This document shows positions 34,227 to 51,591 of a DNA stretch of 51,591 nucleotides, piece by piece. Source of the DNA: Gammaproteobacteria bacterium REDSEA-S15_B12 (lineage in GTDB: Bacteria; Pseudomonadota; Gammaproteobacteria; Arenicellales; UBA868); contig LUSG01000048.1 of assembly GCA_001629395.1 (NCBI GenBank), positions 1 to 51,591 on the forward strand, in the 5' to 3' direction. How positions within the stretch are numbered: position 1 is the stretch's first letter; every line of letters starts with the position of its first letter. The translations under genes were made by a program, and so were the position numbers. Below the pieces are notes generated by a model. It saw nothing but the letters and a program-made list of their open reading frames with translations. It was not told the origin of the DNA and searched no databases.

Positions 34227-34307
34227 ACTGCCGAGGATAGGTCACTCCATCAGCATAGCCAATCATGAACTACATGTGGTCTTCAACACAGCCATGATGA
34301 AGTCACC

Positions 34308-36329: not shown

Positions 36330-37345
36330 CAGTTGCTCCTCCATGGGTTTTTATGCAGCCCGGCAGGCTGAACAAGACAGGCGCGCAACACGACGCAGGC
36401 CCCCGCCAAGGCATCCCAGCCAGAGGAACTGCCTATTCGTTCAATGTGGTGCACTCGAGTGGGAATCATCTCTACGTTGCCTTCGATTACTGAGTTGATC
36501 GCCAGGTGCAATGTCTCAAGCCCCTGACCGGCACTCGCAGCGACCAGATGCGTGCGACTGATCGGGCCGGTCCTCGTCAACAGGTGCGGAGATAAGTCCG
36601 TATAAAGTAACGCGGCAATATCCTGACGATGGACTAGCGAAAGGGCAATAAGAACACCCCCGAGAAAGTCATCGCCGGAGGGCGTGAGCCCGGGGCCCAG
36701 ACCGATCAACTGTTGGGCCGATTCCGGCACACCCTCTACACAACGCTTGTCAGCCAGATGACTAAGCAACCATCTTTCGAGCTCGAAAACAGGAAGTGCG
36801 CAAACATGCGCTTCTCTGGTATCTGATAATTCAGCACCATGGCCGTATAAAAACACACCCAGTCCCTGCCTCGGGACCCGCCCCCTGCTGATTGCATTGA
36901 GCGCATCAAGACCACGCATCAGCGACTCGTTTGTCCAGCACGGAACCAGCGGTGGTGACCAGATTTTGGCCGGCGTCACTATGATAAGAGGTCGATTGCC
37001 AAGATGCACAGCACCCGCACAAACCCGCACAGGCTGATCGACTGCGAGATCGGCGAATACGCCCGAGTATGGTGTGGGCTCAAGTGATAGGTTGACCGGC
37101 CCGTTACCAACCGTGGCATCACCGATACAGATCCACTGACTGCCAAGATCAACGTAGACACTCCGATCGAACACGGCAGCAATCCGTCCGGATACCGACT
37201 GACTGATTTCACGGACAGCAACAGCGCCGATGCTTTGGGCTCTCAACACAGGGCCGAGCACTGATCGCTGTTCTGTGGTCAACCAAGGAAAAGCAGTCCT
37301 TGTATCTGAGTATTGGGATTCGCTGAGTTTCAATTTCTGTTCCAA
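36329..37345 (-). CDS. allH: DUF2877 protein (YlbF/AllH-like, oxamate carbamoyltransferase subunit family)
   Basis: 338 aa. 'LIGLGPGLTPSGDDFLGGVLIAL' is the DUF2877 signature as I recall it. It lies immediately after the FdrA homolog, as in E. coli fdrA-ylbE-ylbF. The symbol is by homology only. Confidence 0.65.
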   Translation of the reverse strand: MEQKLKLSESQYSDTRTAFPWLTTEQRSVLGPVLRAQSIGAVAVREISQSVSGRIAAVFDRSVYVDLGSQWICIGDATVGNGPVNLSLEPTPYSGVFADLAVDQPVRVCAGAVHLGNRPLIIVTPAKIWSPPLVPCWTNESLMRGLDALNAISRGRVPRQGLGVFLYGHGAELSDTREAHVCALPVFELERWLLSHLADKRCVEGVPESAQQLIGLGPGLTPSGDDFLGGVLIALSLVHRQDIAALLYTDLSPHLLTRTGPISRTHLVAASAGQGLETLHLAINSVIEGNVEMIPTRVHHIERIGSSSGWDALAGACVVLRACLVQPAGLHKNPWRSN

Positions 37346-37348
37346 GTC

Positions 37349-38830
37349 TTAGCCGACATTTAAACAAGCCAGCGCCAGCTCTGCAGCATCCGCATTGCTG
37401 GGCGCAACCACAACACCCGCCCGCTCCAATACACTGACCTGTCTTGCCCGGACCTGCGGATCTTCGTCTGTACCCGTGACAGATGCAATAACGACCGAAC
37501 CGGAACAGCCGTGGCGATCTAACAGCCCGGCAAGATGGCCAGCTGGATCGGCATGGGCACCAAAACCTATGACCACATCCAACAACACCACGCCTACATC
37601 AGGGTCTGACAGCGCCGCACAGACAGGCTCATCACGGACAGCCGGGTCAATCATCGGGTGTGGCCGCCCACGGGTAAACCGGTCGTCGCCCAAATCAATC
37701 ATGATGTGGTTTGCGCGCTCTGACGTGAACAAGCCTGCCCCGGGTACTGGCGCATTCGATAAAACAGGCTGTCCGTGCGAAAGAAAGACGACCTGTGCTT
37801 CTGCAGCGAGCGTACCGCCGCTATAAAGCCCCCTAACGTAGCTGCCTGCCACCGGTGCTCGCTGGACAGCCGGCAGCGCTTCCAGTCCTTTGCTGTTTGT
37901 TACTGCGGTCGCCGCTGCATCTTTTAAAGTGGTCGCGAGCTTTGCATTGTCGGGTAACGCCAGGTTGTCACTACCAACCAGGCAGACGGTGTAGCTTTTG
38001 GAACTCCTGCGAATGAATTCAGTGATCTGGTCTACAACACTAGGAGCAGGCGGCTTGGAGATGAGCACAATGTGTTGGGTTGCAACATCTCTTTCCAGCC
38101 AGTCAAGCACGGTCAAGGTGCTGATAGCGCCAACCGCTTCGGTCAGATCTCGTCCTCCAACACCTATTGCGTGCGAGATACCTTCACCGGCGTGGGCAAT
38201 CAGGCAGGATACCTCCTGCATCCCTGTGCCTGAAGCACCCACGATTGCAATATCACCGCGCGGCACAACATTGGCAAAAGCCAGCGGCACCCCGTCGATA
38301 ATCGCCGTTCCGCAGTCAGGGCCCATCACAACAAGTCCCAGATCGCGGGCTTCGCGTTTGAGAGAGATTTCTTCGGCCAGAGCCACATTGTCACTGAAGA
38401 TCATGACATTGAGACCGGCCCTGAGCGCTTTACGTGCTTCTGCCCCGGCGAAGTCACCGGGCACCGAAATCAAAGCGAGATTCGCGTCCGGCAGCTGGCG
38501 ACAGGCCGAGCGCAAGGTAAGCGGACGGAGTTCTCGCGGGGTGCTGTTCTGTTGCGCGGGGCGTTCCATCAATTCGGCTGCCCGCCGCAGTGTCGAATCA
38601 GCTATGGCCCGATCCTGTGCGCGCACCGCGACCAGCAGGTCACCGGGGCCGGCCCTAGTGTCCTCTTCCAGAAGGCCTGCGTCAGAAAGAATGTCCCAAT
38701 TGGCTGGAGTCGCCATCATCAGGGCCGCATCTTCTACACCCTGAATCGCTGTCAATTCCCGTGATATCTGCATCAGCACAACTGAGTCGAGAAAAACCCC
38801 GGCGCGTACTGTGTTGACCGTGACACTCAT
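37349..38830 (-). CDS. allF: FdrA-family protein (AllF-like; succinyl-CoA-synthetase-alpha-like folds)
   Basis: 493 aa. 'GVFLDSVVLMQISREL', 'LALISVPGDFA', 'VMIFSDNV', 'VMGPDCGTAIIDG', 'IVGASGTGMQE', 'GRPHPMIDP' are collinear with E. coli FdrA. It is about 60 aa shorter at the C-terminus. Confidence 0.8.
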   Translation of the reverse strand: MSVTVNTVRAGVFLDSVVLMQISRELTAIQGVEDAALMMATPANWDILSDAGLLEEDTRAGPGDLLVAVRAQDRAIADSTLRRAAELMERPAQQNSTPRELRPLTLRSACRQLPDANLALISVPGDFAGAEARKALRAGLNVMIFSDNVALAEEISLKREARDLGLVVMGPDCGTAIIDGVPLAFANVVPRGDIAIVGASGTGMQEVSCLIAHAGEGISHAIGVGGRDLTEAVGAISTLTVLDWLERDVATQHIVLISKPPAPSVVDQITEFIRRSSKSYTVCLVGSDNLALPDNAKLATTLKDAAATAVTNSKGLEALPAVQRAPVAGSYVRGLYSGGTLAAEAQVVFLSHGQPVLSNAPVPGAGLFTSERANHIMIDLGDDRFTRGRPHPMIDPAVRDEPVCAALSDPDVGVVLLDVVIGFGAHADPAGHLAGLLDRHGCSGSVVIASVTGTDEDPQVRARQVSVLERAGVVVAPSNADAAELALACLNVG

Positions 38831-40098
38831 GAAATCCCCAGCCTTTCTCCAAGCGCTCGAAGCGCTTTTTCAAAGCACGCCATCGGTGCTTTGACCACAC
38901 CGGCACCGACCTGCCCGATGCCGGGTTCTCGATGAGCGATCCCGGTATTGATCGTTGGTACGATCCCGGTCTCAACCACCAGTCGGATATCAATACCTGT
39001 GGGTACGCCTTGATAATTCTCACTCACGATCGTCCACTCGGGATGTTCGCCCAGCGTGATCTCTCTCATTCTGGCGGTAATGCCGGCCGCCTCGACAACA
39101 GATCCGGCGCCCACAAATCCGGCAACCGCGGGCGCTGCAGCCATTGCAAACCCACCCAGTCCGATCGTCTCAACAATGGTTGAGTCCCCCATATCCGGGT
39201 TGGCATCGGCTGCGTTGAATCCTGGGAAGTAAAGTCCTGCCGGCATCTCGACCGGCGCCGTAAACCATTCGTCGCCCAGTCCACTGATACAAATTCCGAA
39301 ATCAGTGCCGTTTCGCGTCATCGCAGTGACCACAGTAGAGTGTTCAATATTACGAACCGGGTCCATGATGGACTTGCCCATGGCCATGGCGATGTTGAGG
39401 AAAAATTGATCGTTGCTGCCCATAAATGCCAGCATTTCAGACAGATCACCGTGGTCTGCCACTACCGATGCCAGAGCAGGTGCCAGTTCGCGCACGAGCA
39501 AGCTTGAACAGGCCACATTGCGCTGGTGCATTTCATCGCCCATCGTCAGCCCGCGGGCAACCAGTGGCCTCAGTGGAATACCCCCACAGCACTGCAGCGC
39601 GCTGCCCAGAGCCGGGCCCAGCGAATCACGAATCCAGGCCAGTCTGTCCCGTACCGCCTCGTCATTACCCCCGAACCGCATCACTTTGCCCAAGCCCTCG
39701 TTGACGGTGCAATAGGCACGGTTGCCCGTTGCGCGGTTCTCGACCACCAGCAAGGGTTGGCTGCAGGTTGTCAGTCCGGTCATCGGACCTACGGCAGAAA
39801 AGTGATGGTTTGGATGAAACTCGAAGCACCCTTTTGACGCCTGAACGCCGGCTTCATCAAGATCGCGAGCCCAGCCTTCGAATACCGCCACCCCTGCGAC
39901 AGCACCGCGCATCGGACCGCACATCCTGTCCCACTCGATGGGTGGGCCGGCGTGCAAAATCGTGTGCTCTTTCAATTCCGGGATGAGCTCCTTGGCCGGC
40001 AGCACATCGATCAGTACCGGGTCACCCTGTAACAGAATCTCCAGCGCCTTTGAATTGGCCCACCGAATCGCAGGGGCGAGCGCCGCAGTGTCCACCAT
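38827..40098 (-). CDS. allG: DUF1116 protein (YlbE/AllG-like, oxamate carbamoyltransferase subunit family)
   Basis: 423 aa from 'MVDTAALAPAIRWANSKALE'. 'LHAGPPIEWDRMCGPMRGA', 'VVENRATGNRAYCTVNEGLGKVMRFG', 'TMGDEMHQRNVA', 'INTGIAHREPGIGQVGAG' match the YlbE pattern. The ATG forms TAATG with the upstream small ORF and the stop forms ATGA with allF. Confidence 0.8.
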   Translation of the reverse strand: MVDTAALAPAIRWANSKALEILLQGDPVLIDVLPAKELIPELKEHTILHAGPPIEWDRMCGPMRGAVAGVAVFEGWARDLDEAGVQASKGCFEFHPNHHFSAVGPMTGLTTCSQPLLVVENRATGNRAYCTVNEGLGKVMRFGGNDEAVRDRLAWIRDSLGPALGSALQCCGGIPLRPLVARGLTMGDEMHQRNVACSSLLVRELAPALASVVADHGDLSEMLAFMGSNDQFFLNIAMAMGKSIMDPVRNIEHSTVVTAMTRNGTDFGICISGLGDEWFTAPVEMPAGLYFPGFNAADANPDMGDSTIVETIGLGGFAMAAAPAVAGFVGAGSVVEAAGITARMREITLGEHPEWTIVSENYQGVPTGIDIRLVVETGIVPTINTGIAHREPGIGQVGAGVVKAPMACFEKALRALGERLGIS

Positions 40099-40316
40099 TA
40101 ATCTGCCAGCATTGAGAGCAAGCGTGCCAGATCTTCGTCCCCACCCGCCGGGGGGCGCCAATCAACGTGAACAACGTCGACATCCTGAGCATCCAGGTCT
40201 GTTGCAAAAACGGCAAGCCCCAGGTTGATGACCCGGGGGCGCGACTGCAGCAGTTCAGCACATACCCGACCGATGGCCGGTGAGTCGTTCTGGTCAGACA
40301 CCACTGTAGACCTCAT
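40098..40316 (-). CDS. Small (about 72 aa) protein translationally coupled to the DUF1116 gene; resembles the C-terminal extension of long FdrA proteins
   Basis: 'RVINLGLAVFATDLDAQDVDVVHVDWRPPAGGDEDLARLLSMLAD'. The stop TAA overlaps the allG-like ATG. The start is uncertain: ATG 40316 or GTG 40304/40301, each overlapping the aminotransferase stop. Confidence 0.55.
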   Translation of the reverse strand: MRSTVVSDQNDSPAIGRVCAELLQSRPRVINLGLAVFATDLDAQDVDVVHVDWRPPAGGDEDLARLLSMLAD

Positions 40317-41550
40317 AAGCCGCATCGACAGCCGCCCCGGGAGTGGCCACATAGCCGTTTCGCCGCAGTACAGTTTCCAGTGCGCTTAAACACCGCAGAA
40401 CATTGGTTTTACGACAGCCGTAACCCATCGTGCCGATTCGCCAGATCTTGCCATGCAGTGGACCAAATGATGTTCCTATCTCGATACCAAAATCGTCCAG
40501 TAACGCGGCACGAGCGGTATCGCCGTTCTCGATCGACTCGGGTATGTAGACACCGGTCACATTGGTCATTCGATGCTCGGCATCACCGAAGAGTTCAAGC
40601 CCCATCGCAACCAACCCCGCTCGCAGCGCTTGCGAAGTCAGTCTATGGCGCTCGAAACCGGCTTCCAATCCTTCCCCGAGAACGACTCGAGCACATTCCC
40701 GCGCAGCGTACAGCATAGAAGTCGACTCGGTGTGATGATTCAGGCGCAAAGGACTCCAGTAATCCATCAGCATGGCAAGGTCGAGGTAGTTGGATTGGAT
40801 AATCGCACCTTCAGCGTCTACGCTTTCCGCGCTTCGTATACCGGCCTCGACATGCTTGCGGGCGTTGATCCGATCCACAGCGTGTTCACTCAAAGTAACG
40901 GGTGATGTGCCAGGTGGTCCCGACATACATTTCTGCAGTCCCGACGACACCGCGTCCAGGCACCAGTCGTCAGTTTCCACCGGGCTACCGCCGAGTGTCG
41001 CGGTGGTGTCGGCATAAACCAGAATGCCAGCCTCACGACAGAAGCGTCCGACATCCCCCAGCGGTTGCAGCATCGTCGTTGACGTATCACCATGGACCAT
41101 CGCAACCAGCTTGGGTTGATGCGCACGAATCGCGTCAGTGACCTGCTCGGGGTCGAATACTGTACCCCACTCAGTTTCTATGTTGACCAGATCACCACCG
41201 GCCCGCCGTGCGATCTCGGTCAGCAGATGTCCAAAGCGGCCAAAAATCGGTACCAGCACTTTGTCCCCGGGCGAGATCAGCGAAGTAAGACAAGCCTCGA
41301 TCCCTGAACGGGCTGTCCCGTTAACCAGCAGGGTCCACTGATTTTCAGTACGAAACACCCGTCGGTACAGCGCCATCACCTGATTCATATAGGTGGTGAA
41401 CTGTGGATCGAATTGCCCAAGCATGGCCCTGGACATTGCCTGTAGAACCCGGGGATAGACATCGACGGGACCGGGTCCCATCAGCAGTCTTGGTTCTGGA
41501 TCAAGTTCTTCAAACAGGGTGCTCGACCCCGGATGTGTGCTGTCACTCAT
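40294..41550 (-). CDS. Class-V PLP aminotransferase (alanine/serine-glyoxylate, PucG-like ureidoglycine-glyoxylate aminotransferase family)
   Basis: 418 aa. 'LLMGPGPVDV', PLP-lysine context 'AVSSGLQKCMSGPPGTSP', 'WRIGTMG'. Specificity is inferred from the purine-catabolic context only. Confidence 0.8.
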   Translation of the reverse strand: MSDSTHPGSSTLFEELDPEPRLLMGPGPVDVYPRVLQAMSRAMLGQFDPQFTTYMNQVMALYRRVFRTENQWTLLVNGTARSGIEACLTSLISPGDKVLVPIFGRFGHLLTEIARRAGGDLVNIETEWGTVFDPEQVTDAIRAHQPKLVAMVHGDTSTTMLQPLGDVGRFCREAGILVYADTTATLGGSPVETDDWCLDAVSSGLQKCMSGPPGTSPVTLSEHAVDRINARKHVEAGIRSAESVDAEGAIIQSNYLDLAMLMDYWSPLRLNHHTESTSMLYAARECARVVLGEGLEAGFERHRLTSQALRAGLVAMGLELFGDAEHRMTNVTGVYIPESIENGDTARAALLDDFGIEIGTSFGPLHGKIWRIGTMGYGCRKTNVLRCLSALETVLRRNGYVATPGAAVDAAYEVYSGV

Positions 41551-41576: not shown

Positions 41577-42551
41577 TCAGTCGTCAGCAACGACGTGGGT
41601 GCCGGCGTCTCCTATCAATGCGGGCAGTGCTTGCTCGAGGTGCGCAATGATCGCACGTCTGCCGCCCCGCTCAATAAATCGTATTGCGGCTTCGACCTTG
41701 GGTCCCATGCTACCCGCAGCAAAGTGCCCATCCTCCTGGTGCTGTCTCATCTGTGAGACCGAACATTGGGCAATCTCCTTTTCATTCGGCCCGCCGAAAT
41801 CCAGCGCCACCCGCGGTACGCCGGTCAGGATCAACATGTGTTCGATACCCAGTACATTGGCCATGTGCTGTGAAGTCAGATCTTTATCGATCACCGCTTC
41901 TATCCCCCGGCGTATGCCATGGGCATCTCTAACAACGGGTATACCACCGCCACCGCCGGCAATCACAATCGTACCCCGACTGGCCAGTCCATCGATCAGC
42001 GAGATGTCACAGATGTGTTTGGGTTCAGGTGAGGGCACGACCTGGCGCCATCCACGGCCGGCATCTTCGTGCATAACCCAACCGAGCTCAGATTCAAGTT
42101 CCTTCGCCTCCTGCTCGGAGAAAAAATATCCCACGGGCTTGCTCGGCTGCCCGAATGCAGGATCTGCCGGATCAACCTCAACCTGTGTGACCAAGCCGAT
42201 AGCGTGTCTTGGGTTACCCGCGCCACGCAGCGCGTTCTCGAAAGCCTGCATCAGCAGATAAGCAGTTACCCCCTGTGTATTGGCAACACAGATATCAACC
42301 GACATGGGCGTAACCCGATGTCTTGCCAGAGCCTGACGCATCATTGTTTTGCCGACACCTGGACCATTGCCGTGCGTAACGATTAGTTCACGTTCCAGTT
42401 CTAAAATGGGTAACAGTGTCTGGGCTGCACGGGCGGCTGTATCCATCTGTTCTTCAGGCGTGCCTTTAATGCCCTGAGGATGAATGGCATTTCCCCCCAC
42501 TGCGATCAACAACCGGGGAGGGAGTTCCCGTGAGTGGGCAGGTGAAGTCAT
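41577..42551 (-). CDS. arcC: Carbamate kinase
   Basis: 324 aa. 'LLIAVGGNA', 'VTHGNGPGVG', 'IAGGGGGIPVV', 'EAVIDKDL', 'FAAGSMGPKVEAA'. Confidence 0.92.
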   Translation of the reverse strand: MTSPAHSRELPPRLLIAVGGNAIHPQGIKGTPEEQMDTAARAAQTLLPILELERELIVTHGNGPGVGKTMMRQALARHRVTPMSVDICVANTQGVTAYLLMQAFENALRGAGNPRHAIGLVTQVEVDPADPAFGQPSKPVGYFFSEQEAKELESELGWVMHEDAGRGWRQVVPSPEPKHICDISLIDGLASRGTIVIAGGGGGIPVVRDAHGIRRGIEAVIDKDLTSQHMANVLGIEHMLILTGVPRVALDFGGPNEKEIAQCSVSQMRQHQEDGHFAAGSMGPKVEAAIRFIERGGRRAIIAHLEQALPALIGDAGTHVVADD

Positions 42552-43583: not shown

Positions 43584-44615
43584 TCAGTTTAATCCAACGA
43601 TGTTGGCGATCAATGACATACGCAGTGGTACTGAGAAACCGATCTGCTTGAAATACAGTTCGTGTGCCGTCTGGTCGATTCCAAAGTCGAATTCTCCTTC
43701 ATTCCGTGGCAGCGAGTGCATAACACCCACAGTCTTTCCACTTTGCTCACGGATTTTTTCCAGCCCGTCAACGGTGAAATAGTATTCCTCCATCTTTTTC
43801 ATGAAGTCATCCCGCCCTGGATCACCTTTCTTGACCGAACACCCTGGCAGATACAACAGATCTATCCCTTCGTCAGCAATCAGATCCTCCTGTTGCCGAA
43901 TCGTCAGGTCATTGTGTTCCACATACGTCGCATTCATCCCGTCGAGTTTTTCACGGATGACATCCGGTGTACGCAGGCCGGTCGTACCGGAATACACAAT
44001 CCTGGCACCCATCCGAGCCAGGCCCAGGGCAAAGGACTGCCCGGAACGCGCGCGCGACAGATCGGGCGTGGCGATCATCACACTCATGGTCGAAAAATCA
44101 CCGCCCAACACCCGCCACGCGGTGTACATGTCGAGCAGACCCTGTGTGGGATGCGTCACATTGCCGTAACCCCCACTGATAATCGGAATTGTGTCACCCG
44201 CCAGAAGTTCTATATCTGCCAGCACTCTTTCATCATCGGGGTGCCTGAGTACAAGAACATCGGCATATTGCGAGATCACCCGGATCGAATCGTAAAGGGA
44301 CTCATTCTTTGCTGCAGACGAACTGACCAGCGGGTTGGACTCCGTCAGTACGTTGCCACCAAGACGGTACATGGCCGTCTCATGGCTGAACCGGGTTCGG
44401 GTGCTGGGCTGGAAAAACAAAGTACACAAGATCCTGTGCCGAAGCAGTTCCAGACCGCTTCGCCAGTAAGGCTCGAACATTTCTGCTGTTAGAAAAACGT
44501 TGTCGAGTTCATCTGAAGACAGGTCGTCGATAAAAGTCAGGTGGCGACCTTTGATCGCGGTTTTTTCTACCTGGGCATAGATGTCTCTCGGGCCAAAGTC
44601 CGGCGTCAATACCAT
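43584..44615 (-). CDS. ATCase/OTCase-superfamily carbamoyltransferase of non-canonical specificity (candidate ureidoglycine/allantoate carbamoyltransferase)
   Basis: 343 aa from the ATG at 44615, behind 'GAGGAAG'. Carbamoyl-phosphate site intact: 'QPSTRTRFSHE', 'VLRHP', 'THPTQGLLD', 'MHSLPR'. The ATCase 'TRVQKER' aspartate-binding segment is replaced by 'PGCSVKK'. Confidence 0.85.
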   Translation of the reverse strand: MVLTPDFGPRDIYAQVEKTAIKGRHLTFIDDLSSDELDNVFLTAEMFEPYWRSGLELLRHRILCTLFFQPSTRTRFSHETAMYRLGGNVLTESNPLVSSSAAKNESLYDSIRVISQYADVLVLRHPDDERVLADIELLAGDTIPIISGGYGNVTHPTQGLLDMYTAWRVLGGDFSTMSVMIATPDLSRARSGQSFALGLARMGARIVYSGTTGLRTPDVIREKLDGMNATYVEHNDLTIRQQEDLIADEGIDLLYLPGCSVKKGDPGRDDFMKKMEEYYFTVDGLEKIREQSGKTVGVMHSLPRNEGEFDFGIDQTAHELYFKQIGFSVPLRMSLIANIVGLN

Positions 44616-44760
44616 AGTTGTGCTTCCTCGCTGATTCAAAGTTACTGTGCAGATCGCGGTGTTAACTGCCGTTGGATCCCGGGCCAGGATCCATTGCTAT
44701 GGCAGAACCCCGGACAGGGTGGAACATAAACTGTGTTCAGAACTGCTCTGAAAATCCAGC

Positions 44761-44846: not shown

Positions 44847-45383
44847 TCAGTTGTAGCATTCGATCTCCTGCAGCCTTAGCCAGGCTATACGATGCACCTG
44901 TCTGAGCGCTTCAGCAAATTCATCGTCACGGTCACTGTTGATTCGCTCGTGGAAATTCTCCAGCACCTGCTGTCTATTACGACCGCGTACCGCAAGAATA
45001 AAAGGAAAACCAAATTGCTTGGTGTAAGACTGATTGAGGGACTGAAACTCCGCGTATTCAGCTTTTGTACACCGGTCCAGTCCCGCACCGGCTTGTTCAG
45101 ATCGGGACTCGGTTGTCAGGACATCACCCACGCCCAGTTTGCCGGCAAGATCGGGGTGTGCGCGCAGCAGCCTGAGCTGAAGTTCCGGACCTGCCTCCTC
45201 GACAATTGCGACCAGGGTCCGGCACAGACCTTCAGGCGAATCTTCGGTACTCGCGAGACCTTGATCCCAGGCCTGCTCAACAATCCAGGGGGATTTCTCA
45301 TAGATATGGCCGAACACTGCGATGAATTCCTCGCGATCCATTTCACTGGGCTTGCGGTGGTTGTGCAATCGATCATCCGTCAC
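44847..45383 (-). CDS. uraD: 2-oxo-4-hydroxy-4-carboxy-5-ureidoimidazoline (OHCU) decarboxylase
   Basis: 'EFIAVFGHIYEKSPWIVEQAW', 'LLRAHPDLAGK', 'FGFPFILAVRG'. A GTG start at 45383 lies 2 nt after the puuE stop; ATG 45341 is an alternative. The longer ORF up to 45530 overlaps puuE and is rejected. Confidence 0.85.
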   Translation of the reverse strand: MTDDRLHNHRKPSEMDREEFIAVFGHIYEKSPWIVEQAWDQGLASTEDSPEGLCRTLVAIVEEAGPELQLRLLRAHPDLAGKLGVGDVLTTESRSEQAGAGLDRCTKAEYAEFQSLNQSYTKQFGFPFILAVRGRNRQQVLENFHERINSDRDDEFAEALRQVHRIAWLRLQEIECYN

Positions 45384-46454: not shown

Positions 46455-46805
46455 ATGGGACAACTGACAACTCACGTGCTGGACACAGCCCGCGGAAAAC
46501 CCGCGGACAATATGAACTGGGCCCTGTATTGTGCCGACACCGAACGCACCGTGCTTGCCACAGGACGCACCAATGCAGACGGGCGGAATGCCGGACCGAT
46601 CTTAGCGGGTGCAGATTTCGTGTCAGGCATATACGAACTCGTGTTCTATGTCGCGGAGTATTTTCGATACGGCGGCATTGAACTGCCGGACCCAGCCTTC
46701 CTGGATGAGGTGGTTATTCGGTTTGGCATTGCTGAATCGCACAGCCACTATCACGTGCCTCTACTCATTTCGCCCTATGGGTACAGCACTTACCGGGGGA
46801 GTTGA
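46455..46805 (+). CDS. uraH: 5-hydroxyisourate hydrolase (transthyretin-like)
   Basis: 116 aa. N-terminal 'LTTHVLDTARGKPA', 'HYHVPLLISPYGYSTYRGS' with the diagnostic C-terminal YRGS. Confidence 0.92.
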   Translation: MGQLTTHVLDTARGKPADNMNWALYCADTERTVLATGRTNADGRNAGPILAGADFVSGIYELVFYVAEYFRYGGIELPDPAFLDEVVIRFGIAESHSHYHVPLLISPYGYSTYRGS

Positions 46806-46833
46806 ACCCTCACCCGGTCGGACAGCCAGAAAC

Positions 46834-48295
46834 ATGCAACCCAGTAGAGATAAGGTCCGCTTTGTTCTCGGCAGTATGCCGCTTGAAATCAGTCTGGATA
46901 AAGTTAAAAAAAACCGGCACCAAGGAAGGCTGTGCCGAAGGCGATTGCGGGGCTTGTACCGTGCTGATCGCTGAACTGTACGACAACAGCCTCAAGTACA
47001 CGGCAGCCAACGCATGCATCCTGCTACTGGGCATGGTGGATGGGAAACAAGTGCTGACGGTTGAACACCTGGCGTCAGACACCCTTCACCCGGCCCAACA
47101 AGCCATGATTGACCATCACGGCTCGCAGTGCGGCTTCTGTACGCCGGGCTTCGTGATGTCGATCGCCGCATTGCAGCTCGATGGGCATCACGGGGATTCA
47201 ATCCAAACACCTGGTCGGGATCAGATCGACCAGCACCTCGCCGGTAACCTGTGTCGGTGTACGGGCTATGGGCCGATTATCGATGCGGCCCGCCAGGCCT
47301 GTACCCAGCCGTTACCGGACTACTGGCCGCACCAGCAGACCGCCGTTCAGTCCATACTTGGCCAATGGCAACAACAGGATGAAACACTGCATGTCGAGTG
47401 TGAGTCGGGCCTGTTTGCAGCACCCCGCACAGAAGCACAACTCGCCACATACCTTTCCGATCAACACTCACCCCCGACCCTGCTCGCAGGTGCCACTGAT
47501 ATAGGTCTTTGGATCACGAAACAGGGGCGGCAGCTCACTACGCTGCTCTATCTGGGACAGATATCAAGCCTTAAAACCGTCAATCGGCAAGAAGACGAGC
47601 TTGAGATCGGTGCTGCGGTTTCACTACAGCATGCAGCGCCCGAATTGACCCGCCTTTCACCGGATCTTGGGCTCCTGCTGCGCCGGTTTGGCGCACGTCA
47701 GGTCCGCAGCCAGGGTACCATTGGCGGCAACATTGCGAACGGATCGCCCATCGGTGATCTACCCCCCGCACTGATCGCGCTGGGCGCAACACTGCGAATC
47801 AGATGCGCTAATGGTCAACGAGAGATTCCGCTGGAGGATTTTTTCATCGACTATGGACAACAGGATCTCGCAGACAACGAATATGTGGCGTCGGTCGTGC
47901 TCCCGGCACGCCCACAGCCGCACTTTTGGTGCTCGAAGATCGCCAAACGTTTCGACCAGGATATCAGCGCTGTTCTTGGCGCATTTTCCCTGACACTGGT
48001 CGATGGTTTAGTTCACAACGCCCGCTTTTGTTTTGGTGGAATGGCCAGCACGCCGCGCCGGGCTCGTCGTTGCGAAGCCGCTGTGGAAGGACGCCGCCTC
48101 GATGAGGACACACTGGCCGATGCACAAAATGCGCTGCTACAGGATTTTGATCCTATTGCCGATCTGCGCGCGAGTGCCCGCTACCGCCGGACGGTCGCCG
48201 CGAACCTGCTCGACAAGTATTTTCGGTTTCTGAACGTGACCGACGTGCCATCTGTTTATGAGTTTTCTTCGCCACAGGCCTTCACCCATGTCTGA
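46834..48295 (+). CDS. xdhA: Xanthine dehydrogenase small subunit XdhA ([2Fe-2S] + FAD), interrupted as given by a +1 frame change at an A8 run
   Basis: ATG 46834 gives 'MQPSRDKVRFVLGSMPLEISLDKVKK', a typical XdhA N-terminus, in frame 1. From the A8 run at 46906-46913 the homologous sequence continues in frame 2: 'KKTGTKEGCAEGDCGACTV...HGSQCGFCTPGF...CRCTGY...' through the FAD domain to 48295. Frame 1 stops at 46974. Confidence 0.8.
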
Positions 48296-50591
48296 TAGTG
48301 CATCGATACTGGGCGCAGCCCTCAACCACGACAGTGCCATAAAACACACGACCGGGGAGGCGCTGTATATCGACGACATACCAGAACCCCGCGGCACGCT
48401 GCATCTGGTCCCTGGGTATGCCAACGCGGTTTGTGGGCAGCTGCGCAGTGTGGACCTGTCTGCTGTTGAATCTGCAACAAACGTTGTTGCTGTACTGCGC
48501 GCAGACGATGTACCAGGAACCCTCGATATCAGTCCTACACACGCCGGAGACGACCCTTTATTGGCCAAAGACCGCATTCGGTATTTCGGTGAACCGGTTT
48601 TTGCGGTGGTTGCTCGAGGGTACCAAGACGCTCGACGTGCGTCACGCCTGGCCAAGATAGATATTGATTCACAAGACCCGATCCTGACAGTCGAAAATGC
48701 TCTGAATGCCCAGAGTTTCGTCAGTGAATCCAGGCAAATACAACGTAACGACTGGCAGGGCGCCATCGAACAGGCGCCCCATCGCCTGCGCGGCACCACC
48801 GTCAGCGGCAGTCAGGACCACTTCTATCTGGAGGGTCAGGTTTCTCTGGCGATCCCACAAGAAGACGGTGGGGTGCACATTTATGCCTCCACCCAGCACC
48901 CGTCAGAAATTCAGCACGTTGCGGCACAGGTACTGGGCCTGCCGGATCACACTGTGACCGTAGAGGTGCGGCGAATGGGGGGCGGCTTCGGCGGCAAGGA
49001 ATCGCAGGCTGCCCAATGGGCGGTGCTCGCCGCTCTGGCTGCCAGCAAAACCGGACAGCCCGTGAAATGCCGGCTGGACCGGGACCTCGACATGATCATG
49101 ACGGGCAAACGGCACGACTTTCACAGTGACTGGGAAGTCGGCTACGACCAGGATGGGCGGATAGCCGGCGTTGACATTCACATGGCTTCTCGCTGCGGCT
49201 GTTCGCACGACCTCTCCGATCCAGTGAACGATCGGGCAATGTTTCACGCAGACAACGCCTATTTTTACCCGGCCGTGCGGATCCGGTCCGACAGATGTCA
49301 AACCAACACGGTATCCAATACGGCCTTTCGTGGTTTTGGTGGTCCGCAGGGAATGCTTATCGCAGAACAGATCATTCAGGCCATAGCTCACGAACGCCGC
49401 CTGGATCCCCTGGATGTGCGGCGGCTTAACTTTTACGAGCACAACGACCGCAACCTGACGCCATACCACATGCAGGTGGAAGCCTTCGTACTTGATGAAC
49501 TCGTTGAGCAACTGGAATCGACAAGCCGTTACCGTGAGCGGCGTAAATCGATAAAAGCGTTCAACAGTACAAACCCATATCTGCGGCGTGGGCTCGCGCT
49601 GACACCGGTTAAATTCGGCATCTCTTTTACCAATACGCCGCTCAACCAGGCCGGTGCACTGTTACACGTGTACAAAGACGGCAGTGTTCTTTTAAACCAT
49701 GGCGGTACGGAGATGGGGCAAGGGCTCCTGATCAAGGTCGCACAAGTGGTTGCCGCTGAACTGCAGATTGACATAGACCAGGTCCAGATCTCGTCAACAC
49801 ACACCGGCAAAGTGCCCAACACCTCTGCCACAGCCGCATCGTCCGGGACAGATCTCAACGGTATGGCTGCACAAAATGCCGCGCGTACTATCCGTCGACG
49901 GCTCACTGCTTTTGCGGCTACCCATTACGACGTCGCAGAAAATGAGATCGAGTTCCATCACGGGCAGGTCCGTATTGCTGACAGTTCGATGACATTTTCT
50001 GAACTTGTGCTTGAGGCTTACCTGCACCGGGTTCAGCTTTCCGCGACCGGTTTCTACCGCACACCGAAAATCTGGTGGGATGCCGAAACAGCCCGCGGGC
50101 GGCCGTTTTATTATTTCGCCTACGGCGCGGCTGTTTCTGAAGTGGTGGTAGACCTGCTGACGGGTGAAAACCGCGTTGTTGCAGTCGACATCCTCCACGA
50201 TGTCGGCCGTTCACTGAATCCTGCAGTCGATGCCGGACAGATTGAAGGCGGTTTCATTCAGGGTATGGGCTGGCTGACCACTGAGGAAGTGTGGTGGGAC
50301 GGTGATGGTCGGCTGATGACGCACGCGCCGTCGACCTACAAAATACCGGCGTGCAGCGACCGCCCTGCGCACTTTCGGCTGGACATGTACACGGGCAGTG
50401 AAAATATCGAAGCGACCGTTTATCGTTCGAAGGCGGTTGGTGAACCGCCACTGATGCTGGCCTTATCCGTACACCAGGCCATCGCGGATGCACTCTCCAG
50501 TACCAGCGATCACGGTGAATTGCCACAGTTGCGTGCGCCGGCAACACCCGAAGCCGTACTGGATGCGATTCAGTCATTGCGGACATTGTAA
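48288..50591 (+). CDS. xdhB: Xanthine dehydrogenase molybdopterin-binding large subunit XdhB
   Basis: 767 aa. 'RRMGGGFGGKESQ', 'NTAFRGFGGPQG', 'GGTEMGQG', 'SKAVGEPPL'. The start overlaps the xdhA stop by 8 nt. Confidence 0.95.
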   Translation: MSDSASILGAALNHDSAIKHTTGEALYIDDIPEPRGTLHLVPGYANAVCGQLRSVDLSAVESATNVVAVLRADDVPGTLDISPTHAGDDPLLAKDRIRYFGEPVFAVVARGYQDARRASRLAKIDIDSQDPILTVENALNAQSFVSESRQIQRNDWQGAIEQAPHRLRGTTVSGSQDHFYLEGQVSLAIPQEDGGVHIYASTQHPSEIQHVAAQVLGLPDHTVTVEVRRMGGGFGGKESQAAQWAVLAALAASKTGQPVKCRLDRDLDMIMTGKRHDFHSDWEVGYDQDGRIAGVDIHMASRCGCSHDLSDPVNDRAMFHADNAYFYPAVRIRSDRCQTNTVSNTAFRGFGGPQGMLIAEQIIQAIAHERRLDPLDVRRLNFYEHNDRNLTPYHMQVEAFVLDELVEQLESTSRYRERRKSIKAFNSTNPYLRRGLALTPVKFGISFTNTPLNQAGALLHVYKDGSVLLNHGGTEMGQGLLIKVAQVVAAELQIDIDQVQISSTHTGKVPNTSATAASSGTDLNGMAAQNAARTIRRRLTAFAATHYDVAENEIEFHHGQVRIADSSMTFSELVLEAYLHRVQLSATGFYRTPKIWWDAETARGRPFYYFAYGAAVSEVVVDLLTGENRVVAVDILHDVGRSLNPAVDAGQIEGGFIQGMGWLTTEEVWWDGDGRLMTHAPSTYKIPACSDRPAHFRLDMYTGSENIEATVYRSKAVGEPPLMLALSVHQAIADALSSTSDHGELPQLRAPATPEAVLDAIQSLRTL

Positions 50592-50597
50592 CTGCCA

Positions 50598-51591
50598 ATG
50601 AATAGCGTCAATCTTTCATCGATGAGTGCGTGTGGACCGGTTGACTGGATCGGCGCGGCGCGGCGACTGATCACAGAACACCGTCGTGCAGTACTGATCA
50701 TGGTCACCGCGAATAAGGGGTCGACACCCCGGGACAGTGGCACCTGGATGCTGGTCTCAGACGATGGACAGTCCGGCACCCTGGGTGGTGGTGAACTTGA
50801 ACGACTGGCCGAAGAAGCGGCCCGTGCCATGCTGGCTGGACAGGGTAACTGGCAGCGCTGTTCACTGCATTGTGCACTGGGCCCGGACCTCAGGCAGTGT
50901 TGTGGTGGTCACGTCACACTGATGCTCGAGCCCCTGGATCTGTCGGCAACTGACTGGCTGGCGCAGGCCGCTGAATCGGTACGGATAGGTGACAACCAAT
51001 ACAGCGTACTTTTCCAGCCAAATGAGCCTGCTGCCGCACCGCGGATCATCACAAACGATGGGGCTATGTCGGGTTTAACCGGCGTACATTTTCAGCCGAT
51101 CACTGACACCCGTATGAGTCTGTTTCTTTTTGGTGCCGGTCATGTCGGTCTAGCCATCGCCGCCATATCGGCACAGCTGCCACTTCGCCTGACTGTTTTC
51201 GATGGCAGAGCCAAGCAACGAGCGCTCGTCCCGAACGCGGACAATATTCAAGTCCTGGGTATGGACTCGGCCGAACAAGCCGCGGCTGGGGTGCCGTCAG
51301 GTTCGGCCGCGCTCGTTATGACACACAGTCATGAACTGGATTACACCTTGTGTCATGCACTGCTCACACAAAATAGTGCCGGTTTTGTCGGCCTGATCGG
51401 CAGCCGATCCAAAGCGGCCCGATTCCGCAGCCGCTTAAGAAAAGACAAGGTTCCGCAGAAGTTTCTGGCCCGGCTGACCAGCCCCATCGGCAGTTCCGGC
51501 CCAACTGGAAAAGAACCCGGTGTGATTGCCCTGGCTGCCCTGTCTGAAGTACTCACACTGAACATGAAGTCGGCTGAGCCCAACCTGGCGC
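50598..51591 (+). CDS. xdhC: Xanthine dehydrogenase accessory/maturation factor XdhC (3' end beyond the window)
   Basis: Not in the supplied ORF track because no stop lies within the window. My manual translation from ATG 50598 stays open to base 51591: 'VLIMVTANKGSTPRDSGTWMLV..GTLGGGELE', 'LFLFGAGHVGLAIA', 'GLIGSRSKAARF'. It begins 6 nt after the xdhB stop. Confidence 0.85.
   Translation, partial: MNSVNLSSMSACGPVDWIGAARRLITEHRRAVLIMVTANKGSTPRDSGTWMLVSDDGQSGTLGGGELERLAEEAARAMLAGQGNWQRCSLHCALGPDLRQCCGGHVTLMLEPLDLSATDWLAQAAESVRIGDNQYSVLFQPNEPAAAPRIITNDGAMSGLTGVHFQPITDTRMSLFLFGAGHVGLAIAAISAQLPLRLTVFDGRAKQRALVPNADNIQVLGMDSAEQAAAGVPSGSAALVMTHSHELDYTLCHALLTQNSAGFVGLIGSRSKAARFRSRLRKDKVPQKFLARLTSPIGSSGPTGKEPGVIALAALSEVLTLNMKSAEPNLA

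What the first reader, a model, noticed from the sequence alone, without database searches (positions are those of the whole stretch)
43584..44615. ATCase-fold carbamoyltransferase keeps the carbamoyl-phosphate site but has lost the aspartate beta-carboxylate binding residues
Seen in the sequence: aligned by eye to E. coli PyrB, the carbamoyl-P motifs are present ('STRTR', 'RHP', 'HPTQ', 'HSLPR' versus HPLPR). The Lys84-equivalent ('AAKNES') and the Arg167-equivalent ('PDLSRARSGQS' versus 'GDLKYGRTVHS') also appear retained.

The segment 'LYMTRVQKER' carries Arg229 and Gln231, which are the aspartate beta-carboxylate ligands as I recall. Here it reads 'LYLPGCSVKK', so both are substituted. The OTCase 'HCLP' and 'DxxxSMG' motifs are also absent.

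Inference: the acceptor is an alpha-amino acid other than aspartate or ornithine. Given the context, ureidoglycine (that is, allantoate phosphorolysis) is the best candidate. From memory, a ureidoglycine carbamoyltransferase was proposed and assayed in Rubrobacter xylanophilus (Barba et al., BMC Syst Biol 2013). I cannot tell whether this protein belongs to that clade.
Basis: partly seen in the sequence, partly recalled or inferred. Interest (0 to 1): 0.75.

Follow-up and report, generated by a model that had tools for sequence, protein, structure and literature searches.

The report
Allantoate-splitting ATCase-like carbamoyltransferase (UGTCase)
This gene is annotated in databases as aspartate carbamoyltransferase, but it belongs to the known small family of ureidoglycine carbamoyltransferases, which split the purine breakdown product allantoate with phosphate to yield carbamoyl phosphate and so ATP; here it sits in an operon that may do this twice per allantoate.

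Summary
The 343-aa product of window 43584-44615 (minus strand) has an ATCase fold. Its carbamoyl-phosphate site is intact (STRTR, R-H-P, HPTQ, L267), and Lys84 and Arg167 are kept. Arg229 is Gly, Gln231 is Ser and HPLP is HSLP.

The protein is 57% identical to C. ljungdahlii D8GTE4 and 48% identical to Rubrobacter Rxyl_2847, the one assayed ureidoglycine carbamoyltransferase (UGTCase). It is about 30-32% identical to true ATCases. It carries the published family signature (H[ST]LP, plus G-x-[SC] in place of RxQ) and clusters with these proteins in a neighbour-joining tree.

Gene context in 55 related loci supports the same function:
- 46 have carbamate kinase and 43 have an allantoinase.
- Every locus has a known ureidoglycine consumer, either an AllE-type cupin or an HpxJ/PucG-type aminotransferase.
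- An AllC-like allantoate amidohydrolase is absent from 69 of the 78 loci fetched.

So this is a new member of a known but poorly studied, mis-annotated family. The less ordinary part is the operon: UGTCase, an asparaginase-like protein, carbamate kinase, ureidoglycine aminotransferase and AllGFH. This suggests a doubly phosphorolytic route from allantoate to oxamate (two carbamoyl phosphates) in marine Gammaproteobacteria. That route is inferred, not shown.

The parts
43584..44615 (-). UGTCase-family carbamoyltransferase CDS (343 aa, stop codon included)
   Evidence: ORF. Pfam and NCBIfam results. 48% and 57% identity to Rxyl_2847 and D8GTE4. AF2 model with pLDDT 89.9 and an ATCase fold.
44623..44629 (-). 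Shine-Dalgarno GAGGAAG, ending 7 nt before ATG 44615
   Evidence: Read directly from the sequence. It supports the ATG start rather than the upstream TTG at 44639.
44391..44405 (-). STRTR carbamoyl-phosphate motif (residues 71-75). It is preceded by Q69, which is E50 in E. coli.
   Evidence: S, R, T, R are invariant and T53 is 73 of 74 in clade sequences. E50Q is present in 78 of 79.
44307..44309 (-). Lys103 (E. coli Lys84; contributed to the neighbouring subunit's active site in ATCase trimers)
   Evidence: K in 74 of 74. The preceding residue (K83 in E. coli) is Ala in 74 of 74.
44142..44153 (-). HPTQ motif (residues 155-158; E. coli H134-Q137)
44034..44066 (-). PDLSRARSGQS segment carrying Arg190 (E. 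coli Arg167), with clade-specific R188 (E. coli Y165) and A189 (E. coli G166)
   Evidence: R167 in 74 of 74, R165 in 73 of 74, A166 in 79 of 79.
43827..43853 (-). YLPGCSVKK, the specificity segment that replaces ATCase YMTRVQKER (R229G, Q231S, R234K)
   Evidence: P-G-[CS]-S is invariant in 74 clade sequences.
43704..43718 (-). HSLPR, the UGTCase hallmark H(T/S)LP in place of ATCase HPLP or OTCase HCLP
   Evidence: The motif is named in PMC4581275 and PMC4016543.
42558..43574 (-). Asparaginase-like gene, 10 nt downstream of the UGTCase gene (likely start ATG 43559)
   Evidence: Pfam Asparaginase at 6e-61. TIGR00520 scores 292.8, below its 314.3 cut-off. Catalytic residues are kept but Q59K, N248E and E283M are changed. 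It is linked to a UGTCase gene in 20 of 55 loci and in Rubrobacter.
41577..42551 (-). Carbamate kinase
   Evidence: NF009007 scores 311.9, above its 266 cut-off. It is linked to a UGTCase gene in 46 of 55 loci.
40294..41550 (-). Ureidoglycine-glyoxylate aminotransferase (HpxJ/PucG orthologue)
   Evidence: Best PDB sequence hits are 3NNK (546.5 bits, 3.7e-163) and 3ISL PucG (443.5 bits).
36329..40161 (-). allG (38827-40161), allF/fdrA (37349-38830) and allH (36329-37345): oxamate carbamoyltransferase
   Evidence: Pfam AllG at 6.9e-88 and AllH at 5.3e-19. FdrA NF004760 scores 506.6, above its 433 cut-off. 53% and 44% identity to E. coli AllG and AllF. The enzyme is defined in PMC11326118.
44847..46261 (-). 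puuE allantoinase (45386-46261) and OHCU decarboxylase (44847-45341, probable ATG), upstream in the same direction
   Evidence: TIGR03212 scores 478.8, above its 424.6 cut-off. TIGR03164 scores 203, above its 96.25 cut-off.
46802..51591 (+). Divergent xanthine dehydrogenase genes: xdhA (46802-48295), xdhB (48258-50591) and an open frame with an XdhC-like N-terminus that runs off the window end
   Evidence: Pfam results. The frame translation is; the XdhC call was made by eye and was not scanned.

Best explanation
The gene encodes a catabolic ureidoglycine carbamoyltransferase (UGTCase; KEGG R12703). The enzyme has an ATCase fold and is presumably trimeric.

Proposed reaction: allantoate + phosphate gives (S)-ureidoglycine + carbamoyl phosphate. 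The enzyme keeps the whole carbamoyl-phosphate/phosphate site and the residues that in ATCase help hold the carboxylates of the aspartate moiety (R105, R167, K84). The aspartate beta-carboxylate clamp and closure network (E50, R229, Q231, R234, P266) is replaced by Q, G, S, K and S. This would leave a neutral, roomier pocket for the second, uncharged ureido group.

Proposed pathway:
1. PuuE makes allantoate.
2. UGTCase takes the place of the hydrolytic allantoate amidohydrolase AllC.
3. The adjacent carbamate kinase converts carbamoyl phosphate + ADP to ATP + NH3 + CO2.
4. In this operon ureidoglycine is then probably transaminated by the HpxJ/PucG orthologue to oxalurate.
5. AllFGH phosphorolyses oxalurate to oxamate and a second carbamoyl phosphate.

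Shown here: sequence, fold, family membership and gene linkage. Inferred: the activity of this protein, the binding mode, and the two-carbamoyl-phosphate route.
For: **Active-site pattern.** The pattern is confirmed and is invariant across 74-79 relatives.

**Similarity to the assayed family.**
- 48% identity to the assayed Rxyl_2847 and 57% to D8GTE4, against about 30-32% to an ATCase and to the Nocardioides and R. baltica pseudo-ATCases.
- The NJ tree (200 bootstraps) gives 100% with D8GTE4, 68% with Rxyl_2847, and 100% for the super-clade apart from ATCases.
- The H(T/S)LP and G-x-[SC] signatures match the published family definition.
- Rxyl_2847 produced ureidoglycine and carbamoyl phosphate from allantoate only when arsenate or phosphate was present (PMC4016543).

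**Gene context.**
- In 55 related loci with at least 3 kb on both sides, 46 have carbamate kinase, 43 have an allantoinase (AllB or PuuE), 44 have an AllE-type cupin (43-59% identical to E. coli ureidoglycine aminohydrolase) and 11 have the class-V aminotransferase. Every locus has one of these two ureidoglycine consumers and none has both.
- L081 reads racemase, AllE-like cupin, UGTCase, carbamate kinase, AllA, PuuE. Clostridial loci L074 and L078 hold AllB, AllE, AllD, AllFG, UGTCase and carbamate kinase, which is the E. coli anaerobic set with UGTCase where AllC would be.
- No AllC-like gene occurs in the window or in 69 of 78 loci.
- The window aminotransferase matches 3NNK ureidoglycine-glyoxylate aminotransferase at 546 bits. 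AllG and AllF are 53% and 44% identical to the E. coli proteins.

**Fold.** The AF2 model has pLDDT 89.9, and all top PDB fold matches are ATCases.
Against: - No member of the D8GTE4/window sub-clade has been assayed.
- The only biochemical data are from Rubrobacter and show low specific activity (about 0.05 umol/min/mg at 37 C with 20 mM allantoate) and no kinetics. A better physiological substrate is not excluded.
- The node joining the window sub-clade to the Rubrobacter sub-clade has only 68% support, from a simple NJ analysis.
- Nine of 78 loci (Crenobacter, Kistimonas and others) also carry an AllC-like M20 hydrolase (32-34% identity) and mostly lack a nearby carbamate kinase. UGTCase there would be redundant or differently used.
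- The aminotransferase route needs glyoxylate as amino acceptor, and no source of glyoxylate is evident in this operon.
- There is no solved UGTCase structure, so the pocket description comes from homology only.
- The rest of the genome was not available, so I could not check for allC, alc or pyrB.
Confidence: 0.85

Rival explanations
1. It is an ordinary, divergent aspartate carbamoyltransferase (PyrB) for pyrimidine synthesis, as the databases name it.
For: ATCases are the best hits in the PDB by both sequence and fold. Source annotations say 'aspartate carbamoyltransferase catalytic subunit'. K84, R105 and R167 are retained.
Against: - R229, Q231, R234 and E50 are invariant in the 16 true ATCases examined here and are all replaced in this protein.
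- It scores below the ATCase equivalog cut-offs.
- The Pfam Asp/Orn-binding domain scores below its gathering score.
- No pyrI or pyrC gene is nearby, and the gene sits inside a purine-catabolic operon.
- It clusters apart from ATCases with 100% bootstrap.
Confidence: 0.02
2. It is an ATCase-fold transcarbamylase for a different purine-derived ureide. Candidates are oxalurate (oxamate as acceptor) or ureidoglycolate. Under this reading the allantoate activity seen in Rubrobacter is a side activity.
For: - The Rubrobacter activity was low and no alternative ureides were reported as tested.
- The gene often lies immediately downstream of the AllE-like cupin, which makes ureidoglycolate.
- Oxalurate is an expected intermediate in this operon.
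Against: - The operon already encodes the dedicated oxalurate enzyme AllFGH, so an oxalurate activity would be redundant here.
- Most cupin-type loci lack both AllD and the aminotransferase, so they have no route to oxalurate.
- Oxamate has no alpha-amino group or carboxylate-bearing Calpha like the one that R167 and K84 appear kept to bind.
- Without UGTCase most loci would have an allantoinase and a ureidoglycine consumer but nothing to link them, because AllC is absent in 69 of 78.
- Decarbamoylation of ureidoglycolate would need an unstable hydroxyglycine leaving group.
Confidence: 0.08
3. It removes both carbamoyl groups of allantoate in succession: allantoate to ureidoglycine, then to diaminoacetate, which breaks down to glyoxylate + 2 NH3. 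That would give two carbamoyl phosphates from this one enzyme.
For: Allantoate is symmetric, and ureidoglycine still carries a ureido group on the same carbon. Rubrobacter reportedly lacks all known downstream enzymes. This route would also supply the glyoxylate that the aminotransferase needs.
Against: Ureidoglycine accumulated as the detected product in the Rubrobacter assay. Every one of the 55 loci encodes a dedicated ureidoglycine consumer next to the gene, which would be unnecessary if the enzyme consumed ureidoglycine itself.
Confidence: 0.05

Closest known systems
Rubrobacter xylanophilus UGTCase Rxyl_2847 (UniProt Q1AS69; Barba et al. 2013, PMC4016543)
   Same: - ATCase fold.
- STRTR and HPTQ are intact, and K84 and R167 are kept.
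- The Y-L-P-G-C-S segment replaces Y-M-T-R-x-Q.
- The H(T/S)LP motif is present.
- It is adjacent to carbamate kinase and an asparaginase-like gene, inside a purine-degradation cluster with an allantoinase.
   Different: - Only 48% identical, and in the sister sub-clade.
- HTLP rather than HSLP.
- His rather than Arg at E. coli position 165, and His rather than Gln at position 170.
- The host is a thermophilic actinobacterium.
- Its listed operon (Table 2 of the paper, Rxyl_2840-2850) includes no ureidoglycine aminotransferase or AllFGH.
E. coli aspartate carbamoyltransferase catalytic chain PyrB
   Same: Same fold (TM 0.85-0.88). Same carbamoyl-phosphate site, with S80 and K84 that ATCase contributes from the neighbouring subunit. 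R105 and R167 are kept.
   Different: - About 30% identity.
- E50Q, G166A, R229G, Q231S, R234K and P266S.
- No PyrI partner gene.
- Catabolic context with carbamate kinase.
- Scores below the ATCase HMM cut-offs.
Allantoate amidohydrolase AllC / HpxK (M20 metallohydrolase)
   Same: It occupies the same pathway step, allantoate to (S)-ureidoglycine, between allantoinase and AllE or HpxJ. UGTCase takes its place in otherwise canonical all-type clusters.
   Different: The fold and chemistry are unrelated. AllC hydrolyses the ureido group to NH3 + CO2 and conserves no energy. UGTCase phosphorolyses it to carbamoyl phosphate, which carbamate kinase turns into ATP.
Catabolic ornithine and putrescine carbamoyltransferases with carbamate kinase (arginine and agmatine deiminase pathways)
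   Same: Same superfamily and same logic: phosphorolysis of a ureido compound to carbamoyl phosphate, coupled to carbamate kinase for ATP (PMC6022934).
   Different: They belong to the OTCase branch (HCLP; DxxxSMG or the PTCase loop). Their substrates are citrulline and carbamoylputrescine. The window protein is on the ATCase branch and lacks those motifs.
Klebsiella HPX route (HpxK, HpxJ, an oxalurate-cleaving step, HpxW) and the E. coli AllFGH-AllK oxamate branch
   Same: The proposed intermediates are the same: ureidoglycine, oxalurate, oxamate. The window encodes an HpxJ orthologue and AllFGH plus carbamate kinase.
   Different: - The first step here is phosphorolytic (UGTCase) rather than hydrolytic (HpxK or AllC).
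- No AllE, AllD or HpxW homologue was seen in the operon.
- An asparaginase-like protein of unknown substrate is present instead.
- The order of steps in the HPX route is from my own knowledge, not from a paper read here.

Membership tests
Ureidoglycine carbamoyltransferase (UGTCase; the pseudo-ATCase group containing Rxyl_2847) | Two-domain ATCase/OTCase fold on the ATCase branch | tested here: met
   Pfam OTCace_N at 3.7e-38 plus a weak OTCace hit. The AF2 model has pLDDT 89.9, and the top 50 Foldseek PDB hits listed are all ATCases.
Ureidoglycine carbamoyltransferase (UGTCase; the pseudo-ATCase group containing Rxyl_2847) | Intact carbamoyl-phosphate motifs S-T-R-T and H-P-T-Q (Table 1 of PMC4016543) | tested here: met
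   STRTR at residues 71-75 and HPTQ at residues 155-158. Both are conserved in all or all but one of 74 relatives.
Ureidoglycine carbamoyltransferase (UGTCase; the pseudo-ATCase group containing Rxyl_2847) | H(T/S)LP motif in place of HPLP or HCLP (PMC4016543; PMC4581275) | tested here: met
   HSLPR at residues 300-304. Across the clade this position is S in 73 and T in 1 of 74.
Ureidoglycine carbamoyltransferase (UGTCase; the pseudo-ATCase group containing Rxyl_2847) | The ATCase RxQ (R229-Q231) motif replaced by G-x-[SC] | tested here: met
   G258-C259-S260. Rxyl_2847 and D8GTE4 both read GCS. The row numbers in Table 1 of the paper do not match its Fig. 5 group numbers; the deposited sequences settle which group is which.
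Ureidoglycine carbamoyltransferase (UGTCase; the pseudo-ATCase group containing Rxyl_2847) | Phylogenetic placement with Rxyl_2847 and C. ljungdahlii D8GTE4, apart from ATCases | tested here: met
   48% and 57% identity. NJ bootstrap is 100% with D8GTE4, 68% with Rxyl_2847 and 100% for the super-clade against ATCases. A maximum-likelihood tree was not possible with these tools.
Ureidoglycine carbamoyltransferase (UGTCase; the pseudo-ATCase group containing Rxyl_2847) | Gene context of carbamate kinase plus allantoinase within purine catabolism | tested here: met
   The window order is puuE, uraD, UGTCase, asparaginase-like gene, carbamate kinase. In 55 loci, 46 have carbamate kinase and 43 have an allantoinase.
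Ureidoglycine carbamoyltransferase (UGTCase; the pseudo-ATCase group containing Rxyl_2847) | Catalysis: allantoate + Pi gives ureidoglycine + carbamoyl phosphate | not testable with these tools
   Only Rxyl_2847 has been assayed. The window protein needs an enzyme assay.
Aspartate carbamoyltransferase (PyrB) | RxQxER 240s-loop motif and FxExSTR (Glu50) | tested here: not met
   The protein reads G-C-S-V-K-K and F-Q-P-S-T-R. All 16 ATCases compared keep R229, Q231, R234 and E50.
Aspartate carbamoyltransferase (PyrB) | Score above curated family cut-offs | tested here: not met
   TIGR00670 scores 176.9 against a cut-off of 236.95. NF002032 scores 154.9 against a cut-off of 263.
Ornithine carbamoyltransferase and relatives (PTCase, AOTCase, SOTCase, YgeW) | HCLP motif and DxxxSMG (OTCase), or the family-specific loops or knot | tested here: not met
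   HCLP and SMG are absent. The OTCase, PTCase, AOTCase and YgeW models score 17-82 bits against cut-offs of 280-559.
Oxamate carbamoyltransferase AllFGH | Three-subunit FdrA / DUF1116 / DUF2877 enzyme, unrelated to the ATCase fold | tested here: not met
   The target has an ATCase fold. AllF, AllG and AllH are separate genes at 36329-40161 in the same operon.

The most novel reading that the evidence does not exclude
The operon UGTCase / asparaginase-like / carbamate kinase / ureidoglycine aminotransferase / AllGFH encodes a so far undescribed, fully phosphorolytic and urea-free route.

Proposed steps:
1. Allantoate + Pi gives ureidoglycine + carbamoyl phosphate.
2. Ureidoglycine is transaminated to oxalurate.
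3. Oxalurate + Pi gives oxamate + a second carbamoyl phosphate.

This would yield two ATP per allantoate through one carbamate kinase, in widespread marine Gammaproteobacteria and SAR324. In this reading the UGTCase-linked asparaginase-like protein (catalytic residues kept; Q59K, N248E and E283M changed) is a new amidohydrolase. It would act either on ureidoglycine, which is the aza-analogue of asparagine and would supply the glyoxylate the aminotransferase needs, or on oxamate.
Probability: 0.4. Interest if true: 0.6.

Novelty: new member of a known kind. Interest (0 to 1): 0.4.

Why it matters
- **Annotation.** Every source name seen for this family is 'aspartate carbamoyltransferase' or 'hypothetical', and NCBIfam has no model for it. 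Purine-nitrogen and energy budgets inferred from marine, gut (Sutterella, Clostridia) and oral (Neisseria, Cardiobacterium) genomes therefore miss an ATP-yielding alternative to allantoate amidohydrolase.
- **Family definition.** This work gives the family a sharper definition from 79 sequences. The discriminating replacements are E50Q, G166A, R229G, Q231S, R234K, P266S/T, I273F and G292S. It also gives context rules: carbamate kinase, an allantoinase, and AllE or HpxJ.
- **Targets for experiment.** These could guide mutagenesis and structure work, since no UGTCase structure exists.
- **Ecology.** If the two-carbamoyl-phosphate operon works as proposed, allantoin would be a small fermentable-type energy source as well as a nitrogen source for abundant ocean bacteria.

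Tried and rejected
1. **Table 1 of Barba et al.** Taken at face value, it put the protein (HSLP + GCS) in 'pseudo-ATCase 2', which the text equates with Nocardioides rather than the assayed enzyme. I rejected this after reading the deposited alignment and tree labels. Rubrobacter is HTLP/GCS, C. ljungdahlii is HSLP/GCS, the marine group is HPLA/SIA, and Nocardioides is HSLP with a different loop. The table rows are numbered differently from Fig. 5.
2. **Asparaginase-like protein as a substitute for AllE.** This is Barba's proposal of ureidoglycine aminohydrolase activity. It is not supported as a general rule, because the asparaginase-like gene co-occurs with an AllE-type cupin in 9 loci. Its role stays open.
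3. **Asparaginase-like protein strictly as an oxamate amidase.** This is weakened because it occurs with UGTCase where no AllFGH lies within 10 kb. It is not excluded.
4. **Tree building.** A Biopython NJ/bootstrap run timed out. I replaced it with my own NJ implementation.
5. **Promoter and terminator scan of the operon.** It found no more sites than shuffled sequence, so it was uninformative.
6. **Literature searches.** Searches for the combined UGTCase + HpxJ + AllFGH operon, or for any newer UGTCase biochemistry, found nothing beyond the 2013 paper and two reviews.
7. **Base composition.** The cluster shows no compositional anomaly, so there is no sign of recent transfer.
Full report
**What is there.** Window 43584-44615 (minus strand) is a 343-codon ORF.
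- It starts at ATG 44615, preceded by GAGGAAG at 44629-44623. Homologues start at the same Met.
- Pfam finds a strong carbamoyl-P-binding domain (OTCace_N, 3.7e-38). The Asp/Orn-binding domain scores 25.6 bits, below its 29.4 gathering score.
- NCBIfam ranks ATCase models first, but far below their cut-offs (TIGR00670 scores 176.9 against 236.95). OTCase, PTCase, AOTCase and YgeW models score much lower.

**Checking the observation.** A HMMER alignment to E. coli PyrB (1d09) and two MAFFT alignments agree.
- Kept, as E. coli/target numbers: S52-R56/71-75 (STRTR), K84/K103, R105-H-P/124-126, H134-Q137/155-158 (HPTQ), R167/R190 and L267/L302.
- Changed: R229 to G258, V230 to C259, Q231 to S260, and P266 to S301 (HSLP).
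- The block around 229-231 aligns without gaps.
- HCLP and SMG are absent.
- A comparison of 79 clade sequences with 16 true ATCases gives eight discriminating positions: E50Q, G166A, R229G, Q231S, R234K, P266S/T, I273F and G292S.
- From established ATCase work (PALA complexes and mutagenesis; my own knowledge), E50, R229, Q231 and R234 form the aspartate-binding and domain-closure network. The replacement is therefore coordinated and not random drift.

**Is it the Rubrobacter kind?** Barba et al. 2013 (PMC4016543) defined three groups of 'pseudo-ATCases'. They showed that Rxyl_2847 forms ureidoglycine and carbamoyl phosphate from allantoate only when arsenate or phosphate is present.
- Their Table 1 seems at first to place HSLP + G-x-S in a different group from the assayed enzyme. 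The tree labels and the deposited alignment show that the table rows are numbered differently from Fig. 5.
- Rxyl_2847 reads VYLPGCSAPKG / HTLPR and C. ljungdahlii D8GTE4 reads VYLPGCSVPVG / HSLPR. The window protein reads LYLPGCSVKKG / HSLPR.
- BLASTP against the trimmed published sequences gives 57% identity to D8GTE4 and 48% to Rxyl_2847. It gives 32% to a true ATCase and 30% to the Nocardioides and R. baltica pseudo-ATCases.
- A search of 1.84 billion cluster representatives found only about ten clusters scoring above 220 bits. Below these come one outlier (P0134, 174 bits) and then mainly short fragments and ordinary ATCases at about 120-170 bits.
- A neighbour-joining tree (305 columns, 200 bootstraps) joins the target to D8GTE4 with 100% support. 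It joins that group to Rxyl_2847 (with P0124 and P0125) with 68%. It separates a super-clade, which also holds the divergent P0128, P0130 and P0134, from all ATCases with 100%.
- The 2015 transcarbamylase review names H(T/S)LP as the UGTCase hallmark. It predicts second-substrate binding by the residues equivalent to R167, S231, K234 and T/S266 (PMC4581275). These are the positions found here.
- No UGTCase structure exists. The AF2 model (pLDDT 89.9) matches only ATCases, at TM 0.85-0.88 and 23-36% identity.

**Context in the window.** On the minus strand the gene order is as follows:
- puuE allantoinase (45386-46261)
- OHCU decarboxylase (44847-45341)
- a 232-nt gap
- UGTCase
- an asparaginase-like gene, after 10 nt
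- carbamate kinase, after 7 nt
- a class-V aminotransferase, after 27 nt
- allG, allF and allH
- an M24 DoeA-like hydrolase
- a SAM methyltransferase

xdhA, xdhB and an XdhC-like frame diverge on the plus strand. The aminotransferase matches K. pneumoniae ureidoglycine-glyoxylate aminotransferase (3NNK) at 546 bits and B. subtilis PucG (3ISL) at 443 bits. AllG and AllF are 53% and 44% identical to the E. coli oxamate carbamoyltransferase subunits (the enzyme is defined in PMC11326118). The rest of the window is housekeeping genes of an aerobic proteobacterium.

**Context elsewhere.** A scan of one genome per species found 172 stretches that encode a relative, and the best 80 were kept as 78 distinct loci.
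- The window is identical in this protein to marine gammaproteobacterial MAGs. These are labelled variously Acidiferrobacteraceae, Arenicellales and Gammaproteobacteria (ALOHA); a MAG binned as Ca. Thioglobus is 99% identical.
- Other carriers include SAR324, Rhodospirillales, Desulfobulbaceae, Sutterella, Neisseria, Cardiobacterium, Kistimonas, Crenobacter, Pseudomonas delhiensis and Clostridia.
- Among 55 loci with at least 3 kb on both sides, 46 have carbamate kinase and 43 have an allantoinase (AllB or PuuE).
- 44 have a cupin 43-59% identical to E. coli (S)-ureidoglycine aminohydrolase AllE, usually immediately upstream.
- 11 have the class-V aminotransferase, almost always (10 of 11) together with AllFG.
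- 20 have the asparaginase-like gene.
- Every locus has either the cupin or the aminotransferase, and none has both. These are the two known ureidoglycine-consuming enzymes.
- An AllC-like hydrolase (32-34% identity) appears in only 9 of 78 loci, mostly those without a nearby carbamate kinase.
- L081 reads racemase, AllE-like cupin, UGTCase, carbamate kinase, AllA, PuuE.
- Saezia reads AllE-like cupin, UGTCase, DcuC-type transporter, AllB, carbamate kinase.
- Two clostridial loci carry AllB, AllE, AllD (57% identity), AllFG, UGTCase and carbamate kinase. This is the E. coli anaerobic set with UGTCase in the place of AllC.

This linkage is independent evidence that the enzyme takes allantoate and delivers ureidoglycine and carbamoyl phosphate.

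**Mechanism proposed.**
- Shown: the fold, the active-site pattern, family membership and the gene linkage.
- Inferred: the enzyme is a trimer with shared active sites, because S80 and K84 are kept.
- Inferred: it binds allantoate and then phosphate. R124, R190 and K103 probably hold the carboxylate, by analogy with their ATCase equivalents (my own knowledge). The phosphate site (STRTR, H155, Q158) attacks one carbamoyl carbon and releases carbamoyl phosphate.
- Inferred: the second, uncharged ureido group sits where the aspartate beta-carboxylate would be. That pocket is lined by G258, S260, K263 and S301 instead of R, Q, R and P.
- Inferred: carbamate kinase then makes ATP.
- Inferred for this operon: the HpxJ/PucG orthologue converts ureidoglycine to oxalurate, and AllFGH yields oxamate plus a second carbamoyl phosphate. 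That would be two ATP per allantoate and no urea.
- Weak points: the glyoxylate needed as amino acceptor has no evident source, and the asparaginase-like protein has no assigned role.

**Rivals.**
- A true ATCase is excluded by the motifs, the HMM cut-offs, the tree and the context.
- A transcarbamylase for oxalurate or ureidoglycolate is unlikely. AllFGH is already present, and most loci would otherwise lack any enzyme linking allantoinase to the ureidoglycine consumer.
- Double decarbamoylation by the same enzyme is unlikely, given the dedicated ureidoglycine consumers.

**Novelty and verdict.** The protein is a new member of the known UGTCase family (KEGG R12703; accepted in reviews). It is not a new kind of enzyme.

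What is new here:
- a family signature derived from 79 sequences;
- evidence that the family is taxonomically widespread yet uniformly mis-annotated;
- the strict pairing with AllE or HpxJ;
- the operon variant that couples UGTCase to HpxJ and AllFGH. I found no paper describing this variant.

Interest is moderate at 0.4.

Noticed in passing
window 42558-43574 (-): The asparaginase-like protein next to the UGTCase gene keeps the catalytic residues T12, Y25, S58, T89, D90 and K162 (E. coli AnsB numbering). The positions aligned with Q59, N248 and E283 (ligand contacts in AnsB, from my own knowledge) are K, E and M. It is linked to a UGTCase gene in 20 of 55 loci, with either the AllE-type cupin or the aminotransferase, and also in Rubrobacter. 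Its substrate is unknown. Ureidoglycine is the aza-analogue of asparagine, and oxamate is another candidate.
   Followed up: partly
window 32586-36344 (-): An M24 hydrolase resembling ectoine hydrolase DoeA (TIGR02993, 400 bits against a 613 cut-off) overlaps the allH stop codon by 16 nt. A SAM methyltransferase follows it 1 nt later, then a GMC oxidoreductase. This tail of the operon is conserved only in the closest relatives (L002-L004, L007). It has no evident role in purine catabolism.
   Followed up: partly
PMC4016543 Table 1 versus Fig. 5 and supplements 5-6: The numbering of the three pseudo-ATCase rows in Table 1 does not match the group numbers in the text and Fig. 5. By the deposited sequences, the assayed Rubrobacter enzyme is HTLP/GCS (table row 2). 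The marine group is HPLA/SIA (row 1) and Nocardioides is HSLP (row 3). Reading the table alone would misclassify the window protein.
   Followed up: yes
L001 and L010; L017 and L025; L027 and L032: Three MAGs each carry two UGTCase loci on different contigs: ALOHA_A2.5_35, a Myxococcota bin and Desulfobulbaceae Ww282. The two ALOHA copies are 100% and 83% identical to the window protein. These are either real paralogues or mixed bins.
   Followed up: no
window 44674-44692: A near-perfect palindrome, GGATCCTGG-C-CCGGGATCC, lies in the 232-nt gap between the OHCU decarboxylase gene and the UGTCase gene. It could be a regulator site or an RNA hairpin. No run of T follows it.
   Followed up: no
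P0121, P0128, P0130, P0134: Divergent cousins of the family have other residues in the specificity segment. P0121 reads YLPGCR with FFEPSTRTR. P0130 reads YLPGCN with HPLP. P0128 reads YMPAWC with HPLP. P0134 reads NLSGFV with HPFP. They may use different acceptors.
   Followed up: no
L041, L044-L049, L060, L062, L063: Loci from Crenobacter, Craterilacuibacter, Kistimonas and Endozoicomonadaceae combine UGTCase with an AllC-like M20 hydrolase (32-34% identical to E. coli AllC). Most lack a carbamate kinase within 10 kb. This does not fit the simple 'UGTCase replaces AllC' picture.
   Followed up: partly
window 28670-30741 (-): A DUF1611 P-loop protein and a mandelate racemase/muconate-lactonizing-type (dipeptide-epimerase-like) enzyme are encoded by overlapping genes just outside the purine cluster. 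Their function was not examined.
   Followed up: no
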